Shown here piece after piece: positions 28,756-58,868 of a DNA stretch of 64,000 nucleotides. A program made the translations under genes and the position numbers. Location: the NCBI GenBank assembly GCA_044338665.1, contig JBIIWZ010000010.1, positions 4,447 through 68,446 of the forward strand, read 5' to 3'. The notes below the pieces were generated by a model, which did no database searches, was not told where the DNA came from, and was given only the letters and a program-made list of their open reading frames with translations. This stretch comes from Flavobacteriales bacterium (GTDB taxonomy: Bacteria > Bacteroidota > Bacteroidia > Flavobacteriales_D > Sanyastnellaceae). Within the stretch, counting starts at the first letter, position 1. Every line of letters begins with the position of its first letter.

Positions 28756-29340
28756 TTAAAGGTCTCTGTCTAAATTTATAAGAATAAGGCAAAAATCATT
28801 GGGGTTCTCACGTTTAAGTTTAGTGATATTTTTCAGGATGTGCTTTGAGAAATAACCGGTGTATTTCGCCCAATAGAGCACGACGGTTTTGGGGTAATTT
28901 TTCGCTTGACTTCGGACTTGTTGCTTCTCCTCTTCACTGATTTTCAGAAGTTCAAGTTCGTGTTCGAACTTTAAATCTGTGTTTATGTATGGATGAGACT
29001 TTTTTTCAGGAGGAAAAGTAGCGAACGGCTTTTTCGCAACGAAATCCCCTGTGCACTGAGAGAATCCTGTATATAATTCACCATTTGAATCGTAGATCCG
29101 CAATTGAACAGCCGAGAACAGCTTTTCATTGTCTAGAAAGAGCATATGTCTTTTTGAATACAAATCTTTATGCAGCGTATCTACAACCTCAAAACTAAAA
29201 TCGCATATGTATTTTCCGTTGGAAAGAAACAGTTCTTGCTCTTGCTCTGTTGTATTCCTCTGCTCCGAAATACTTAGGATATGAACAAAGTTGCAAGATT
29301 GAAGAAAAACAAAAGAAAGAACCAAATAACAATATTTCAT
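28756..29340 (-). CDS. hypothetical lipoprotein
   Basis: Trimmed to MKYCYLVLSFVFLQSC (lipobox). The tracked N-terminal extension runs through a repeat. Confidence 0.55.
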   Translation of the reverse strand: MKYCYLVLSFVFLQSCNFVHILSISEQRNTTEQEQELFLSNGKYICDFSFEVVDTLHKDLYSKRHMLFLDNEKLFSAVQLRIYDSNGELYTGFSQCTGDFVAKKPFATFPPEKKSHPYINTDLKFEHELELLKISEEEKQQVRSQAKNYPKTVVLYWAKYTGYFSKHILKNITKLKRENPNDFCLILINLDRDL

Positions 29341-29397
29341 GAAGTATGTGCTTAGTGAACGATTTACTTTTTTAGGACGAGACGATGTTTCAATTAC

Positions 29398-29450
29398 GAT
29401 CCCGATAGCTATCGGGAGCATAATTCCAATTCGTAATTGGAACTTCGTTG
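29398..29450 (-). repeat. cassette 3-prime repeat, subfamily b (CCCGATAGCTATCGGG hairpin plus CCAATT-N3-AATTGG)
   Basis: tcccgatagctatcgggagcataattccaattcgtaattggaacttcgttg. Its paralog is at 34153-34210. It lies 3-prime of the stop of 29494..30048. Confidence 0.7.
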
Positions 29451-29493
29451 CTCAGAGATGTCATTGCGATTTGTAGTGCTCATTCAAGAAATC

Positions 29494-30048
29494 CTACATC
29501 TGTCCGTCTGGCCGGTTATATACTATTGTCATTTTTTTTTCAAAAGCTGAAGTAGAAATTTCTAATTCCCAAGATTTGTCAATTGTCGGAAGTGCTTTTT
29601 TAGAATGGTCTAAAAACCTAAACCAACCCCGTGTCTCCTCTGTTATCTTAAAGCTCTGGTTGTTGTCACAAAATACGTCTAAGCAAATATTGTCAGTGAC
29701 ATAGTGGTCCTCTTTATATCCATGCATTGATATAATTTCTGTCCACTGAATCGATTGTACACCCTCGTTTGTTTTTATTGAAAAGCCTAAGTCGCTGAAG
29801 GTGAAAATACCGTTATCTGTGTAAATTTCTTTAAAATTCTTTTCGTTTTGATCTTTATAACCTGTGATATTTTGGTCAGAAATCTCAACTCTTCTGATGG
29901 TTGATCTGAAGAATTTTATAATGAAAAAGATTGTTCCGCCACCAAAAAAGATAGTCCCAACCCAACTAAATGCCAAGCCTCTTGAAATACCCCAAGCAGA
30001 TAAACTGGTCATCATAAGTCCAATTAATATGTTTCTTCTTGCTTTCAT
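29494..30048 (-). CDS. hypothetical membrane-anchored protein (two N-terminal TM helices)
   Basis: 184 aa. Hydrophobic N-terminus ILIGLMMTSLSAWG and WVGTIFFGGGTIFFIIKFF. Its start overlaps the stop of the upstream gene by 4 nt. Confidence 0.55.
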   Translation of the reverse strand: MKARRNILIGLMMTSLSAWGISRGLAFSWVGTIFFGGGTIFFIIKFFRSTIRRVEISDQNITGYKDQNEKNFKEIYTDNGIFTFSDLGFSIKTNEGVQSIQWTEIISMHGYKEDHYVTDNICLDVFCDNNQSFKITEETRGWFRFLDHSKKALPTIDKSWELEISTSAFEKKMTIVYNRPDGQM

Positions 30049-30485
30049 TTTCCGTGAGTTATTCTAATAACCTTGCTGTCTCGACCGTCAATAATTATTG
30101 AAAACGTCCCGCCCTTCATACCCGAAGGAAGTGTTCCTTCAATTAACCAATAATTGTCTTTGAAGTAAATTTCGTAAGGTCGTTGATTTATTATGTTTTC
30201 TTTGCCGTAAATACTGAAGAGGATTGGTTCGGCTACATTTATTGCAGTTACACTGTCTTTAATAATTGCAGTATTGTTGTGAATTAAGTTGTGCTTTGAG
30301 CTGTCGACAAGGGAAGATTGAAGTTCCTGCTCTGCTTGAACTTGTGAAGTTGTCGGCTTAAATCCTTTGCCATTGTCACAGGTGTCACTTTCGAAAACAA
30401 CAAAGTCTTGAACATGCTTTCTTTCTGAGTCGTTACAACTAACCAAAAATAATATGATCAATTTAGAGATTGTTCGTCTTATCAT
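30045..30485 (-). CDS. NTF2-fold immunity protein-like lipoprotein
   Basis: Start MIRRTISKLIILFLVSC (lipobox). The C-terminal AINVAEPILFSIYGKENIINQRPYEIYFKDNYWLIEGTLPSGMKGGTFSIIIDGRDSKVIRITHGK matches, from memory, the pattern of the Imm-NTF2-2 family of polymorphic-toxin immunity proteins. Confidence 0.5.
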   Translation of the reverse strand: MIRRTISKLIILFLVSCNDSERKHVQDFVVFESDTCDNGKGFKPTTSQVQAEQELQSSLVDSSKHNLIHNNTAIIKDSVTAINVAEPILFSIYGKENIINQRPYEIYFKDNYWLIEGTLPSGMKGGTFSIIIDGRDSKVIRITHGK

Positions 30486-30522
30486 AACAGCCACTTTTGC
30501 CAAACTGATGCTGGGAGTAGAT

Positions 30523-57184: not shown

Positions 57185-57197
57185 TGTAACTGCAGCT

Positions 57198-57265
57198 GTA
57201 AGAAATTGGCGGTTCAGTGATTAAATAATCCCAATAGCTATCGAAACGCTCAACTTCGCAAAGCC
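57198..57265 (+). repeat. cassette 3-prime repeat, subfamily a
   Basis: gtaagaaattggcggttcagtgattaaataatcccaatagctatcgaaacgctcaacttcgcaaagcc. It lies 14 nt after the stop of 56522..57184. Confidence 0.75.
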
Positions 57266-57292
57266 AAAAACAGCTAAATCCAATCGAAAAGA

Positions 57293-57715
57293 ATGCAACG
57301 TCTGATACAAATATTAAGCACTGATAAAAACCAAAGAATTATCAATGGACTAATTTTCCTTATTCTTCTCTTTTGGATAACTGCCAAATTGAAATACGTT
57401 CATTACGCAAGTGGCACTATGGTTCAATACAAGTATTACCTGATTCAATTCATTGCTCTAATCTATTTGTCACAAACAATTCTTAACAAGACTTGGATTA
57501 ATTTTATGACAAGAGGTGTTTATGCAATTTTGATAGGATACGTCTTGTGCACTTACATTTATTCTTTTATTGACAAGAATGATTTTGTTGCCCAAGAAGA
57601 ATATGGCGCTTTAATAAAATCAGGGCAGACCTTCGTTAAATTGGCCATACTGTCTGTAATTCTGTGGTTTACAATAACAATAAGTCCAATTGCAAAAAAG
57701 CTAAATACTTTATGA
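57293..57715 (+). CDS. hypothetical 4-TM membrane protein
   Basis: 140 aa. ATGA overlap with the next gene. Confidence 0.5.
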   Translation: MQRLIQILSTDKNQRIINGLIFLILLFWITAKLKYVHYASGTMVQYKYYLIQFIALIYLSQTILNKTWINFMTRGVYAILIGYVLCTYIYSFIDKNDFVAQEEYGALIKSGQTFVKLAILSVILWFTITISPIAKKLNTL

Positions 57716-58245
57716 CGGCACGCATATTTATACTCTTAGTAATCTCAGCAACTGCGTTTTCATGCAATGACAAAAAGGTTGAACACCAGCGGAAAAACGA
57801 AATTCATAAAATAGTTTTTGCAACCGGAGGTTGCTTTGGACCATGCCCGATACAAGTATTTTCAATCGATAGCAGTCTGGCTGTAAAATATCAAGGACTT
57901 AAATACACCGACAACATTGGCAGCTATGTTGGTACCGTTGATAGAGCTCTTTTCGATTCTCTAAACATCAAATTTGAAAACGTAAATTACAAGCAATTGG
58001 ACACGACCTACAGCGGCACAAAAGACGATCTTTTGACAGAATTATTCATCTACTATGGCGACGAAGTAAAGCATATCTCTTCAACCTTTAGCGACATGCC
58101 CGTTAACGTTCAAGTATTATACAACTGGTTATTAGCGACGCAGGAGAAATTTGATTTAACGAAGACGAACGATAGTCTTGTGTTTGAAACTAAAATACAA
58201 AAAGGACTTCCGCCTATTAACCGAACAATAACTTTTACCCCGTAG
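57712..58245 (+). CDS. hypothetical lipoprotein with a GGCFGPCP motif
   Basis: Start MTARIFILLVISATAFSC (lipobox). The GxCxGxCP motif is reminiscent of a DUF family seen in Bacteroidota, but that assignment is uncertain. Confidence 0.5.
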   Translation: MTARIFILLVISATAFSCNDKKVEHQRKNEIHKIVFATGGCFGPCPIQVFSIDSSLAVKYQGLKYTDNIGSYVGTVDRALFDSLNIKFENVNYKQLDTTYSGTKDDLLTELFIYYGDEVKHISSTFSDMPVNVQVLYNWLLATQEKFDLTKTNDSLVFETKIQKGLPPINRTITFTP

Positions 58246-58256
58246 ACCACAGGACC

Positions 58257-58868
58257 ATGAAAAAGACATTACTCGGATTACTTTTTACTCTACTCGTTTC
58301 ATCAGTATTATTTGCGCAAGACAGCGAAATACAAAACGGTGATCTCATTTTTCAGACTTCACTTTCAGAACAGAGTAAGGCCATTCAGCTGGCAACAAAA
58401 TCTGAATATTCACACTGCGGGATTATATTTAATGAAGGCAACGACTATTATGTTTTTGAAGCCATTCAACCCGTAAAGCGCACACCCCTCGACAAATGGA
58501 TCGCTCGAGGTAAAAATGGTGAATACGCTATCAAGCGACTTAAAAACGCAGCACAAGTTTTAACTCCAACGACAATAGCAAAAATGAAACAGGTTGGTGA
58601 CGAATTTCGCGGTAAAAATTACGACTTGACTTTCGATTGGAGTGACGATAAAATTTATTGCTCTGAACTAATTTGGAAGATCTATCAGCGTGCAACAGGA
58701 ATTGAAATAGGCAAACTTGAAAAATTGAGCGACTTCGATTTGACCAGCGATGCGGTGAAGAAAAAAATGAACGAACGTTATGGCAATAAAATTCCTCTAA
58801 ACGAAATAGTCATTTCTCCTGCTTCCATTTTTAACAGCGAATTGCTCGTTACGGTAAAATCGAATTGA
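58257..58868 (+). CDS. secreted YiiX/YaeF-like permuted papain-fold (NlpC/P60-related) hydrolase
   Basis: Signal peptide present. GDLIFQ...SEYSHCGIIF...VFEA...YCSELIW follows the pattern of the C92 YiiX family. Confidence 0.6.
   Translation: MKKTLLGLLFTLLVSSVLFAQDSEIQNGDLIFQTSLSEQSKAIQLATKSEYSHCGIIFNEGNDYYVFEAIQPVKRTPLDKWIARGKNGEYAIKRLKNAAQVLTPTTIAKMKQVGDEFRGKNYDLTFDWSDDKIYCSELIWKIYQRATGIEIGKLEKLSDFDLTSDAVKKKMNERYGNKIPLNEIVISPASIFNSELLVTVKSN

What the first reader, a model, noticed from the sequence alone, without database searches (positions are those of the whole stretch)
28756..58868. Cargo looks like an orphan-immunity (acquired interbacterial defence-like) island without any toxin genes
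The island holds about 40 ORFs of 56-687 aa in five strand-coherent, tightly packed blocks, with several 4-nt stop/start overlaps. By eye roughly two thirds start with a signal peptide or a lipobox (LQSC, LVSC, LFAC, YGCA, FVSC, TTSC, AFSC), or are small multi-TM proteins.

Two ORFs match immunity families of polymorphic-toxin systems from memory. ORF 30045-30485 ends with the NTF2-fold immunity pattern YGK...P...W.IEGTL...GG...I......I.ITHGK. ORF 34964-35167 has an Imm27-like W-x3-YP-x-SS-x-HGGG motif. A TIMP-like putative protease inhibitor (54835-55689) fits the same theme.

No Rhs/YD, PAAR, VgrG, T6SS or large toxin ORF is present. Truncated paralogs and decayed ORFs point to cassette turnover.

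Recombinase-associated AID clusters are described in Bacteroidales. This locus differs in three respects: its repeats are different, it has a resident two-component system, and most of its products are predicted to be exported.
Basis: inference. Interest (0 to 1): 0.8.

Follow-up and report, generated by a model that had tools for sequence, protein, structure and literature searches.

The report
Strain-variable island of exported proteins
A 32-kb low-GC island that some strains of a freshwater Flavobacteriales bacterium carry and near-identical strains lack encodes about 43 mostly exported or membrane proteins, but only four look like neutralisers of bacterial toxins, so it is at best a partly recognisable "shield" island and not a demonstrated immunity array.

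Summary
Window 28705-61044 is a 32.3-kb insert with GC 0.35 against 0.43 in the left flank. It is absent from sibling metagenome contigs that carry an identical Acs protein, and shorter in others. It holds about 43 tightly packed genes. Nine genes that could be tested give a pooled pN/pS of 0.15. By a hydropathy heuristic, 38 of 43 products have a signal peptide, membrane anchor or several TM segments, against 5 of 23 in the flanks.

The "TIMP-like" ORF does fold like the N-terminal domain of TIMP and keeps the CxC start and the cysteine spacing. About 30 other ORFs hit nothing.

Homologs of two tested families sit in unrelated contexts with no toxin nearby. The Imm-NTF2-2 lipoprotein subfamily showed no toxin neighbour in 42 genomes. 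No recombinase, Rhs, PAAR or T6SS gene is present, so this is not an rAID-1 cluster and not a strict polyimmunity locus. Both Pfam Imm genes lie in strain-variable cassettes.

Best reading, at about 0.4 confidence: an envelope-directed accessory island with some orphan immunity or inhibitor content and its own two-component system.

The parts
28705..61044 (.). Inserted island of 32.3 kb, GC 0.352 against 0.432 in the left flank
   Evidence: Contigs L009, L010, L011, L013 and L015 carry the identical Acs protein. They match the window up to 28704 (98.7-99.9% identical, 99.7% for L009) and resume at 61045 (93.7-93.8%).
28592..28661 (.). Left copy of a 70-nt direct repeat. It overlaps a decayed tRNA-Ser-like sequence on the minus strand, 28578-28661.
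   Evidence: The repeat is 90% identical to 60975-61044. The sequence was read. ARAGORN and Rfam do not call it.
60975..61044 (.). Right copy of the 70-nt direct repeat, forming the last bases of the insert
   Evidence: The empty site is not the simple repeat-to-repeat deletion product.
28756..29340 (-). 194-aa putative lipoprotein (LQSC), function unknown, present in every island variant seen
   Evidence: pN/pS is 0.19. No family hit.
29419..30412 (.). Variable cassette 1, holding the 184-aa anchored protein and most of the Imm-NTF2-2 gene. It is missing in L012, L014, L025 and L026, which keep the 5' stub of the Imm gene.
   Evidence: blastn and junction reads
29494..30048 (-). 184-aa membrane-anchored protein that overlaps the Imm-NTF2-2 gene by 4 nt. 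Function unknown.
   Evidence: It travels with the Imm gene in L031 at 96% aa identity. Its only family hit is sub-threshold, STM3941_fam.
30045..30542 (-). Imm-NTF2-2 / YbbC-YhhH family lipoprotein (LVSC)
   Evidence: Pfam PF15631, 85.4 bits, E = 2.9e-24. 205 homologs, mostly lipoproteins of about 130 aa. pN/pS is 0.32.
30523..31365 (-). 280-aa secreted protein with an unknown N-terminal domain and a TonB/TolA-CTD-like C-terminal domain
   Evidence: 53 homologs. AlphaFold2 pLDDT 91. Foldseek gives probability 0.99-1.0 to TonB/TolA C-terminal domains at E of about 0.01. Contexts are unrelated.
32063..37929 (.). Variable cassette 2, with 11 ORFs including Imm27. Absent from L012, L014, L025 and L026.
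34964..35167 (-). 67-aa Imm27-family protein with no signal peptide
   Evidence: Pfam PF15590, 29.9 bits against a cut-off of 27.3, E = 5e-7. Imm27 is listed as the main immunity protein of Ntox10 in PMC3482391.
34747..34917 (-). 56-aa truncated copy of the C-terminus of the 4-TM protein 36335-36781
   Evidence: DNA repeat D3, 83% identical. 73% aa identity.
39874..40524 (+). 216-aa multi-TM protein, first gene of the two-component operon and a candidate sensing partner
   Evidence: pN/pS is 0.05.
40521..41303 (+). 260-aa histidine kinase with one TM segment, a weak HisKA_3 match and HATPase_c
   Evidence: The NCBIfam list also contains UhpB, LiaS and MctS kinase families, which probably come from this ORF. 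pN/pS is 0.10.
41272..41931 (+). NarL/LuxR-type response regulator
   Evidence: Response_reg E = 9.5e-20 and GerE E = 8e-16
42104..42763 (+). 219-aa multi-TM protein. A 26%-identical counterpart sits in the paralogous TM-kinase-regulator module of the empty-site strains.
39552..39588 (-). Repeat module A, rich in CGAATG, upstream of the minus block. The other copies are at 41974-42010, 42783-42819 and 54510-54546 on the plus strand, each upstream of a transcription unit.
   Evidence: 4 matches, 0 expected. It also occurs outside the island in related contigs.
43234..58252 (.). Variable segment 3, about 20 ORFs. Absent from the short island variant (L012, L014) and present in L025 and L026.
43082..43450 (+). 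122-aa secreted protein with a TonB_C domain
   Evidence: Pfam 25.6 bits against a cut-off of 24.6
45185..47248 (+). 687-aa membrane M48 zinc protease with a long C-terminal extension
   Evidence: Pfam E = 3e-12
48361..49257 (+). 298-aa lipoprotein (FVSC) with an XAC2610-related domain and a DINGDGLND calcium-loop motif
   Evidence: NCBIfam NF047539, 38.4 bits against a cut-off of 35, E = 1.3e-9, residues 160-244. Its only PDB sequence hit is 4qtq_A, XAC2610. The function of XAC2610 is taken from PMC10933484.
50696..52084 (+). 462-aa PrsW-family intramembrane protease
   Evidence: Pfam E = 3e-22
54835..55689 (+). 284-aa secreted or lipidated two-domain protein. The N-terminal domain has a TIMP/NTR-like fold with mature N-terminus CDC. 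The C-terminal domain is NTF2/cystatin-like.
   Evidence: A21, C22 and C24 are invariant, and D23, C90 and C123 are conserved in at least 90% of 40 homologs.
57664..58245 (+). DUF6438 lipoprotein. The family recurs in arrays next to Imm-NTF2-2 (L036) and next to TIMP-like plus WapI (L086).
58257..58868 (+). Secreted YiiX/C92 permuted papain-like enzyme, also present in the short island variant
   Evidence: Pfam E = 8e-33. NCBIfam YiiX E = 1.7e-87. Variant data.
59355..60842 (-). It is probably the ORF behind the PADLOC SoFic hit.
   Evidence: Pfam Fic. PADLOC SoFic E = 1.7e-18 for one of the 44 ORFs scanned together.

Best explanation
Window 28705-61044 is a horizontally acquired, strain-variable genomic island in a freshwater Flavobacteriales genome. 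It sits in a hot spot that also collects anti-phage systems. Its cargo is a non-redundant set of about 43 real genes, and nearly all the products go to the membrane, periplasm or cell surface.

The most likely common theme is defence of the cell envelope against antagonists. A minority of the products are recognisable neutralisers of secreted antibacterial proteins:
- an Imm-NTF2-2/YbbC-YhhH lipoprotein;
- an Imm27 protein;
- an XAC2610-like lipoprotein, whose founding member inhibits a lysozyme-like effector in the periplasm;
- a TIMP-fold protein with the CxC N-terminus that, in TIMPs, plugs metalloprotease active sites.

These would act by binding incoming enzymes one to one. The repertoire changes between strains through gain and loss of whole cassettes. 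The island also carries three envelope proteases (M48, PrsW, C92) and a kinase/regulator pair with a minimal sensor domain, flanked by multi-TM proteins. That pair may switch the blocks on under envelope stress.

Shown: the insertion and its variants, coding status, export bias, the four family or fold assignments, and the absence of toxin and recombinase genes. Inferred: that any of these proteins protects against a competitor, that the roughly 30 unknown ORFs share this role, and that the two-component system controls them.
For: Empty, short, medium and full states of the locus occur in contigs with an identical Acs protein.

GC is 0.35 in the island and 0.43 in the left flank.

Pooled pN/pS is 0.15 over 9 ORFs. 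The TIMP-like family and the 280-aa family are conserved across genera.

38 of 43 island products are predicted exported or membrane proteins, against 5 of 23 in the flanks (p = 1e-7).

Imm-NTF2-2 scores 85 bits and Imm27 29.9 bits, both above their cut-offs. XAC2610_fam scores 38.4 bits against a cut-off of 35. The TIMP fold comes with a cysteine pattern of mature positions C1, C3, C69 and C102.

Both Pfam Imm genes lie in cassettes that differ between strains.

The neighbourhood holds a Fic-domain gene with a probable SoFic match and AbiE in the window, and Thoeris and nSTAND genes in the empty-site strains.

Cargo families co-occur elsewhere in low-GC co-directional arrays. L036 has Imm-NTF2-2, the 44499-45059 family and DUF6438. 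L086 has WapI, TIMP-like and DUF6438. L087 has Imm-NTF2-2 in an array of about 24 genes with SMODS and S_4TM.

The concept has precedent: polyimmunity loci (PMC3482391), AID/rAID clusters (10.1101/471110) and an immunity islet with an XAC2610-like gene (PMC7400221).
Against: Only 4 of 43 ORFs carry a neutraliser signature, and they are dispersed, not tandem. About 30 ORFs have no family hit even at E up to 1.

Homologs of two tested cargo families are lone genes in unrelated contexts. The 280-aa ORF has a TonB/TolA C-terminal-domain fold.

The Bacteroidota Imm-NTF2-2 lipoproteins are 50-70% identical across families and phyla, and no toxin family was seen beside them in 42 loci. That is unusual for fast-evolving immunity genes, and it means the 'immunity' label rests on the E. 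coli Rhs association alone.

Imm27 barely passes its cut-off, and the precomputed Pfam table lists no family for it.

The TIMP-like protein may be lipidated on Cys1, which would block the TIMP mechanism.

No cognate toxin or secretion system could be examined in this organism. The upstream repeat is lineage-wide and not island-specific, so control by the two-component system is unsupported.
Confidence: 0.4

Rival explanations
1. This is a generic flexible genomic island: a grab-bag of strain-specific envelope and secreted proteins with no shared function. The few immunity or inhibitor genes are incidental passengers, or they serve the cell's own proteases and hydrolases. For example, the TIMP-like and XAC2610-like proteins could restrain endogenous enzymes, and the two-component system with PrsW and M48 could be an ordinary envelope-stress circuit.
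For: About 30 of 43 ORFs are unclassifiable. There are no family expansions, only one paralog pair.

The full-length TIMP-like family sits in a stable metabolic context in Winogradskyella. The 280-aa family occurs as lone genes.

XAC2610 itself protects mainly against the cell's own effector (PMC10933484).

The right flank is 93.7% identical to the empty-site strains while the left flank is 99.7% identical. This fits exchange of a flexible island by homologous recombination, with no dedicated machinery.
Against: 88% exported or membrane products is far above the flank level. Four neutraliser-type proteins among 43 genes, with both Pfam Imm genes in strain-variable cassettes, is more than expected for random accessory genes. 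The same families recur with WapI and conflict-system genes in arrays elsewhere. The island lies inside a defence hot spot.
Confidence: 0.35
2. This is an envelope-level anti-phage or surface-remodelling island. Its exported and membrane proteins would mask or alter receptors or block phage entry, which would fit its position among AbiE, SoFic-like and Thoeris systems.
For: The insertion site is a defence-gene hot spot. Presence and absence between strains, and cassette turnover, are typical of phage-driven diversity. A paralogous TM-kinase-regulator module sits next to Thoeris in the empty-site strains.
Against: PADLOC returned only 19 families for the 44 ORFs scanned together. Most were Fic-related or PDC candidates, and none was convincingly tied to an exported ORF. 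There are no glycosyltransferase or O-antigen genes. The recognisable families are anti-toxin or anti-enzyme families, not anti-phage families.
Confidence: 0.12
3. This is the decayed cargo of an integrative mobile element (ICE, prophage or integron-like array) that has lost its integrase and transfer genes.
For: There are 70-nt direct repeats at both ends, and the left one overlaps a tRNA-Ser-like remnant. GC is low. Intergenic repeats are present.
Against: No integrase, transposase, conjugation or phage family was found in any island ORF, and there is no room for one in the intergenic gaps. No DNA match was found in the phage or plasmid collections. The empty site is not the repeat-to-repeat excision product. 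The intergenic repeat also occurs elsewhere in the lineage.
Confidence: 0.05

Closest known systems
Recombinase-associated acquired interbacterial defence clusters (rAID-1) of Bacteroidales (Ross et al. 2019, bioRxiv 10.1101/471110)
   Same: Both are low-GC arrays in Bacteroidota with many small co-directional genes, repetitive intergenic sequences, no toxin genes, some homologs of immunity families and content that varies between strains.
   Different: This island has no 5' XerD-like recombinase and has different repeats. Its genes lie on both strands in several units. It carries a resident two-component system and proteases. About 88% of its products are predicted to be exported or membrane proteins. 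Only 4 of 43 genes are recognisable as neutralisers. The host is a freshwater Flavobacteriales organism, and no T6SS link has been shown.
Heterogeneous polyimmunity loci (Zhang et al. 2012, PMC3482391)
   Same: Both have unrelated small genes packed tightly, content that differs between strains, no adjacent toxin, and Imm27 and Imm-NTF2-2 among the listed families.
   Different: The recognised immunity genes here are not in tandem runs of four or more. Most genes are unassigned, and most products are exported, whereas the catalogued Imm families, as I recall them, are mostly cytoplasmic.
Putative T6SS immunity islet of Salmonella Typhi (PMC7400221)
   Same: Both are small toxin-free clusters with periplasmic immunity homologs, including an XAC2610-like protein.
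   Different: The Salmonella islet holds far fewer genes than this island, and their homologs sit downstream of T6SS effectors in other genomes. No such effector linkage was found here.
Flexible (strain-variable) genomic islands at conserved chromosomal hot spots
   Same: Both show presence, absence and nested variants at one chromosomal site in near-identical strains. Both have a composition that differs from the host, no dedicated integrase and a flank that looks recombined.
   Different: That category says nothing about function. The extreme bias towards exported proteins and the neutraliser families are specific to this island.
Listeria metzincin / TIMP-like lipoprotein pair (PMC8235301)
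   Same: Both involve a bacterial protein, possibly lipidated, that is structurally similar to TIMP-family metzincin inhibitors.
   Different: No metzincin gene is adjacent here or in the four homolog contexts examined. The Bacteroidota protein has an extra NTF2/cystatin-like domain and occurs in a full-length and a short form.

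Membership tests
rAID-1 (Ross et al. 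2019) | [quoted passage not shown] | tested here: not met
   No recombinase or integrase family was found in any island or flanking ORF. The intergenic gaps are filled by repeats.
rAID-1 (Ross et al. 2019) | At least 2 co-directional downstream genes with GC of 41% or less | tested here: met
   Blocks of up to 18 co-directional genes. GC is 0.34-0.36.
rAID-1 (Ross et al. 2019) | Integron-like repetitive intergenic motifs shared with Bacteroidales rAID-1 clusters | not tested
   Repeats exist, but the rAID-1 motifs were not available for comparison. The repeats here also occur outside the island.
Heterogeneous polyimmunity locus (Zhang et al. 2012) | Four or more tandem genes of recognised immunity families | tested here: not met
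   Three family hits (30045, 34964, 48361) plus one fold hit (54835), each separated by several unassigned genes
Heterogeneous polyimmunity locus (Zhang et al. 2012) | Small intergenic distances, co-orientation, no toxin gene, and strain-to-strain differences | tested here: met
   Median gap 69 nt and four 4-nt overlaps. No toxin family. Four locus states.
Imm-NTF2-2 / YbbC-YhhH (PF15631) | Profile match above the gathering score, with the conserved Y...W...GG...ITHGK core | tested here: met
   85.4 bits against 26, covering the full profile. W132, G144, G145, H163 and K165 are invariant in the alignment.
Imm-NTF2-2 / YbbC-YhhH (PF15631) | Gene neighbour of a polymorphic toxin (Tox-JAB-2 or Rhs) | tested here: not met
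   No toxin in the island. In 42 genome loci the large neighbours are TonB receptors, DnaB, Omp85/TamB, M56 and similar proteins. Among 93 co-directional neighbours, no toxin family is in the 25 families listed. The listing was cut at 25, so this is not exhaustive.
Imm27 (PF15590) | Profile match above the gathering score | tested here: met
   29.9 bits against 27.3, profile positions 24-67 of 67. The match is marginal, and the precomputed table shows no Pfam hit.
Imm27 (PF15590) | Association with Ntox10 or RHS toxins | not testable with these tools
   All eight contexts of the exact protein are this same island, and none holds a toxin gene.
XAC2610-related immunity proteins (NF047539) | Domain profile above the cut-off, lipoprotein signal and calcium-binding loop | tested here: met
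   38.4 bits against 35. FVSC lipobox-like cysteine at position 19. DINGDGLND aligns to DINGDGHED of 4qtq_A.
XAC2610-related immunity proteins (NF047539) | Conserved Tyr170 loop that enters the effector's active site, and an adjacent GH19 effector | tested here: inconclusive
   In the weak pairwise alignment the Tyr position falls on Cys. No GH19 gene is in the island.
TIMP / NTR-fold metalloprotease inhibitors | OB-type N-domain fold with the TIMP disulfide pattern (Cys1-Cys70 and Cys3-Cys99) and a free N-terminal Cys after signal cleavage | tested here: inconclusive
   The fold match is met: TIMP-2 and TIMP-1 at E = 1.5e-4, and 3ma2_C at target TM-score 0.61. The cysteines are conserved at mature positions 1, 3, 69 and 102. 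The TIMP cysteine numbering is from memory. Whether Cys1 is free (signal peptidase I) or lipidated (signal peptidase II) could not be decided. There is no Pfam TIMP hit.

The most novel reading that the evidence does not exclude
The island is a periplasm-directed polyimmunity island of a new kind. Most of its roughly 30 unassigned exported ORFs would be undescribed immunity or inhibitor families against envelope-acting effectors. Examples are the DUF6438 family, the 44499-45059 family and the TIMP-like family, which recur together in arrays. The island would be assembled without a dedicated recombinase, by cassette exchange at lineage-wide intergenic repeats, and switched on by its own two-component system that senses envelope damage.
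Probability: 0.2. Interest if true: 0.7.

Novelty: new variant of a known kind. Interest (0 to 1): 0.45.

Why it matters
Orphan-immunity arrays have been demonstrated mainly in gut Bacteroidales. A freshwater Flavobacteriales counterpart made almost entirely of exported proteins would extend the idea in two directions. It would reach planktonic lake bacteria, and it would cover toxins that act in the envelope, whereas the catalogued immunity families are, as I recall, mostly cytoplasmic.

It would also offer a list of candidate new inhibitor families. The main ones are the TIMP-fold protein, which is widespread in Bacteroidota, DUF6438 and the XAC2610-like lipoprotein.

The natural series of empty, short, medium and full locus states in near-identical strains makes the question testable by comparison. 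If the unknown ORFs prove unrelated to antagonism, this is simply one more flexible island of hypothetical envelope proteins.

Tried and rejected
1. tRNA, tmRNA or other known RNA at the island ends. ARAGORN and Rfam found nothing. The tRNA-Ser-like 3' end at 28578-28605 was read by eye only.

2. The idea that repeat module A (rich in CGAATG) is an island-specific operator for the resident regulator. It lies upstream of four units, but it also occurs in unrelated contexts in related contigs. I downgraded the idea to speculation.

3. A clean excision product between the 70-nt end repeats. The empty site keeps about 62 nt that the model does not predict.

4. Toxins next to Imm-NTF2-2 homologs. 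Ten large neighbouring ORFs were a TonB receptor, DnaB with an intein, a GT2 glycosyltransferase, Omp85, TamB, an M56 peptidase, DUF1501, a helicase, a ClpB-like ATPase and one with no hit.

5. Scans of unrelated ORFs pooled as an 'alignment' return only the top 25 families. The first NCBIfam run was swamped by response-regulator families and had to be repeated on the unknown ORFs alone. The Pfam scan of 93 neighbours is truncated in the same way.

6. PDB sequence searches of four further unknown ORFs found nothing useful.

7. Island DNA against the phage and plasmid collections gave no match. The XAC2610-like ORF against plasmids gave no match. Imm27 against plasmids gave two weak hits on unannotated Sinorhizobium megaplasmids, which were not informative.

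8. The NCBIfam names MctS and MctR for the two-component system only reflect general NarL-family similarity.

9. Not used: the PHROGs scan, the exhaustive protein-representative search and the viral contig scans. I judged them unlikely to change the verdict.

Full report
**1. What is there**

GC falls from about 0.43 to about 0.35 near 28.7 kb and stays low until about 61 kb. The stretch holds 43 ORFs of 56-687 aa in strand-coherent units:
- a minus-strand run at 28756-39351, interrupted by a 550-nt repeat-filled gap at 33916-34465;
- a divergent plus-strand operon at 39874-41931;
- a lone gene at 42104-42763;
- two plus-strand runs at 43082-54254 and 54835-58868;
- a minus-strand Fic gene at 59355-60842.

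Four neighbour pairs overlap by exactly 4 nt. The median gap is 69 nt and 84% of the stretch is coding.

**2. It is a real, strain-variable insertion**

Looking up the exact Acs protein of the left flank returned metagenome contigs from JGI and ENA samples.
- In L009, L010, L011, L013 and L015 the 470-aa gene is followed directly by AbiEii/AbiEi. By blastn these contigs match the window up to 28704 (98.7-99.9% identical, 99.7% for L009) and resume at 61045 (93.7-93.8%). The insert is therefore 28705-61044.
- L012 and L014 hold a short version. It has five minus-strand genes, the two-component module and the C92 enzyme.
- L025 and L026 hold a medium version. It equals the window minus 29419-30412 and minus 32063-37929.

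Four locus states thus coexist in one population.

A 70-nt direct repeat (28592-28661 and 60975-61044, 90% identical) marks the ends. The left copy overlaps a decayed tRNA-Ser-like sequence that neither ARAGORN nor Rfam calls. The empty site is not the simple repeat-to-repeat deletion product. Together with the more divergent right flank, this favours exchange by homologous recombination over site-specific excision. That step is an inference.

The closest genome record for an island gene is a MAG labelled Flavobacteriales bacterium, at 87% aa identity.

**3. The ORFs are genes**

Nine ORFs have sequence variants that allow a test. Their pooled pN/pS is 0.15, with individual values of 0.05-0.56. 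Two cargo families are conserved at 40-80% identity across Bacteroidota genera.

**4. Export bias**

A hydropathy heuristic classes 26 ORFs as having a signal peptide or anchor and 12 as multi-TM, so 38 of 43. In the flanks the figure is 5 of 23 (Fisher p = 1e-7). Several ORFs have a cysteine straight after the hydrophobic stretch (LQSC, LVSC, LFAC, FVSC, TTSC, AFSC). Dedicated predictors were not available.

**5. Family assignments**

Pfam gives the following:
- Imm-NTF2-2 for 30045-30542 (85.4 bits, cut-off 26);
- Imm27 for 34964-35167 (29.9 bits, cut-off 27.3);
- a histidine kinase and a NarL/LuxR-type regulator;
- TonB_C for 43082-43450;
- Peptidase_M48 for 45185-47248;
- PrsW for 50696-52084;
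- DUF6438 for 57664-58245;
- Peptidase_C92/YiiX for 58257-58868.

A second pass over the 32 unassigned ORFs added one significant hit. ORF 48361-49257 matches NCBIfam XAC2610_fam at 38.4 bits (cut-off 35, E = 1.3e-9). Its only PDB sequence match is XAC2610 itself, through the calcium-loop motif DINGDG.

XAC2610 is the periplasmic lipoprotein that inhibits the GH19 lysozyme-like T4SS effector XAC2609 (PMC10933484). [quoted passage not shown]

Nothing else reached significance. No Rhs, PAAR, VgrG, T6SS, integrase or transposase family appeared.

**6. The TIMP-like ORF**

ORF 54835-55689 has 258 homologs in Bacteroidota. They come in a full-length form and a 165-175-aa form that holds the N-terminal domain only. 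In an alignment of 40 members, A21, C22 and C24 are invariant, and D23, C90 and C123 are conserved in at least 90% of members. After signal cleavage these cysteines would be mature positions 1, 3, 69 and 102. From memory, that is very close to the TIMP pairs Cys1-Cys70 and Cys3-Cys99.

The AlphaFold2 model has pLDDT 89. Its best PDB matches are TIMP-2 and TIMP-1 (E = 1.5e-4 to 4.4e-4, probability 1.0; N-TIMP-1 3ma2_C at target TM-score 0.61). The second domain resembles NTF2 or cystatin folds.

Whether Cys1 is free, as the TIMP mechanism needs, or lipidated is undecided. A TIMP-like lipoprotein is already known in Listeria (PMC8235301).

**7. Do homologs sit next to toxins?**

Mostly not.
- The full-length TIMP-like gene lies beside restriction-modification and defence genes and transposases in CP129493.1. 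In Winogradskyella it lies in a stable metabolic context.
- The 280-aa ORF 30523-31365 is co-transcribed with Imm-NTF2-2. Its homologs are lone genes in unrelated settings. Its model (pLDDT 91) shows a TonB/TolA-CTD-like C-terminal domain and no immunity fold.
- The Imm-NTF2-2 protein belongs to a lipoprotein subfamily that NCBI names YbbC/YhhH. Members are 50-70% identical across Bacteroidota and reach Methylacidiphilales. In 42 genome loci the large neighbours are housekeeping or envelope proteins. Among 93 co-directional neighbours, only Imm-NTF2-2 itself and ORF6N recur.

There is one positive pattern. Several of these loci are long, low-GC, co-directional arrays of small genes, mostly unassigned, that share families with this island.
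- L036 has Imm-NTF2-2, a 53%-identical homolog of 44499-45059, and DUF6438.
- L086 has WapI immediately upstream of the short TIMP-like gene, and DUF6438 two genes downstream.
- L087 has Imm-NTF2-2 in an array of about 24 genes with SMODS and S_4TM.
- L085 has Ank_2, DUF4274, GmrSD_N and a transposase.

This suggests a shared pool of array-forming families linked to conflict systems. It does not show what they do.

**8. Where the immunity genes sit**

Both Pfam Imm genes are in the strain-variable cassettes. Cassette 1 holds the 184-aa gene plus Imm-NTF2-2, and cassette 2 holds 11 ORFs including Imm27. The variants that lack cassette 1 keep the 5' stub of the Imm gene, so that state arose by deletion. 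The XAC2610-like and TIMP-like genes lie in the 15-kb segment that the short variant lacks.

The constant core consists of a few exported proteins, the TM-kinase-regulator-TM module and the C92 enzyme.

**9. Regulation (speculative)**

The kinase has a single TM segment and a weak HisKA_3 match, and it is flanked by multi-TM proteins. A paralogous TM-kinase-regulator module (26%, 38% and 40% aa identity) sits next to AbiE and Thoeris in the empty-site strains.

A repeat of about 75 nt with four CGAATG motifs precedes four transcription units. A second module contains the palindrome AAAAAACTGCGCAGTTTTTT. The first module also occurs in unrelated loci of related contigs, so it is a lineage-wide intergenic repeat. 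No link to the regulator has been shown.

**10. Comparison with known systems**

- rAID-1 clusters require a 5' XerD-like recombinase. None is present, so membership fails, although the low GC, the repeats, the lack of toxins and the variability match.
- Heterogeneous polyimmunity loci share the packing, the variability and the lack of toxins. They are defined by tandem runs of recognised immunity genes, and here the four candidates are scattered among unknowns.
- The locus also fits the descriptive category of a flexible genomic island.
- Island DNA has no match in the phage or plasmid collections.

**11. Verdict**

The island is enriched in neutraliser-type proteins and has the population behaviour expected of a defence repertoire. 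Nine tenths of the cargo remains uncharacterised, and the context tests that could be run gave no toxin linkage.

I rate the envelope-defence reading at about 0.4 and a function-neutral flexible island at about 0.35. Novelty is a new variant of a known kind. Interest is moderate.

Noticed in passing
window 28578-28661 (minus strand) and 60975-61044: On the minus strand, the left island end carries a sequence ending in ...GGTTCGAATCCCTCTCTCTCCGCCA, which looks like the 3' end of a tRNA-Ser, with a CTTGAAA anticodon-loop-like stretch upstream. ARAGORN and Rfam do not call it. Its inner 70 nt are repeated at the right island end without the acceptor part.
   Followed up: partly
window 61045-62785 compared with L009, L010, L011, L013 and L015: The right flank (AbiEii/AbiEi) is only 93.7-93.8% identical to the empty-site strains, while the left flank is 98.7-99.9% identical (99.7% for L009). 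This suggests the island arrived together with its right flank by homologous recombination from a diverged donor.
   Followed up: partly
window 59275-59358 and 62595-62678: An 84-nt stretch from inside the AbiEi/DUF6088 gene is repeated at 90% identity just downstream of the Fic gene. This looks like the remnant of a second AbiE-type module at the island's right edge.
   Followed up: no
L009 13662-20985, and the same region in L010, L011, L013 and L015: In strains without the island, the site is followed by AbiE, a paralogous multi-TM/kinase/LuxR-regulator module, a Thoeris pair (ThsB_TIR and ThsA_Macro) and an nSTAND-like ATPase. The window diverges from these contigs after 62785.
   Followed up: partly
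window 54835-55689; L086 5467-7670; L085: The TIMP-fold protein family is widespread in Bacteroidota. It has a full-length form with two domains and a short form of 165-175 aa. In one 1.3-Mb contig the short form sits between a WapI immunity-family gene and a DUF6438 gene. No metzincin gene was seen in the four homolog contexts examined.
   Followed up: partly
window 33942-34151, 39289-39498, 42783-43057, 54510-54784: The intergenic repeats are modular. One module of about 75 nt is rich in CGAATG. A second of about 200 nt contains the perfect palindrome AAAAAACTGCGCAGTTTTTT. A 32-nt leader (TTCGTAATTGGAAAATCGGAGATTTTATTCCT on the plus strand) lies close upstream of minus-strand gene starts and abuts the start codon of the Imm27 gene (35163-35194). 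The first module also occurs outside the island in related contigs (L073, L074, L076, L077).
   Followed up: partly
L078 8895-11807 compared with window 32042: One metagenome contig follows the island from 40935 down to 32042 and then continues into ETF alpha and beta genes instead of the island's left part. The breakpoint lies within 20 nt of the cassette-2 junction (32062/32063). This is either a recombination hot spot or an assembly chimera.
   Followed up: no
window 47269-47538 and 47519-47755: Two small overlapping ORFs of 89 and 78 aa, both hydrophobic, may be one membrane-protein gene split by a frameshift. Related contigs call the same pair as 89 and 75 aa.
   Followed up: no
window 39874-41931: The two-component operon has GC 0.41, close to the host flank (0.43) and well above the rest of the island (0.33-0.36). 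It may have a different origin from the cargo around it.
   Followed up: no
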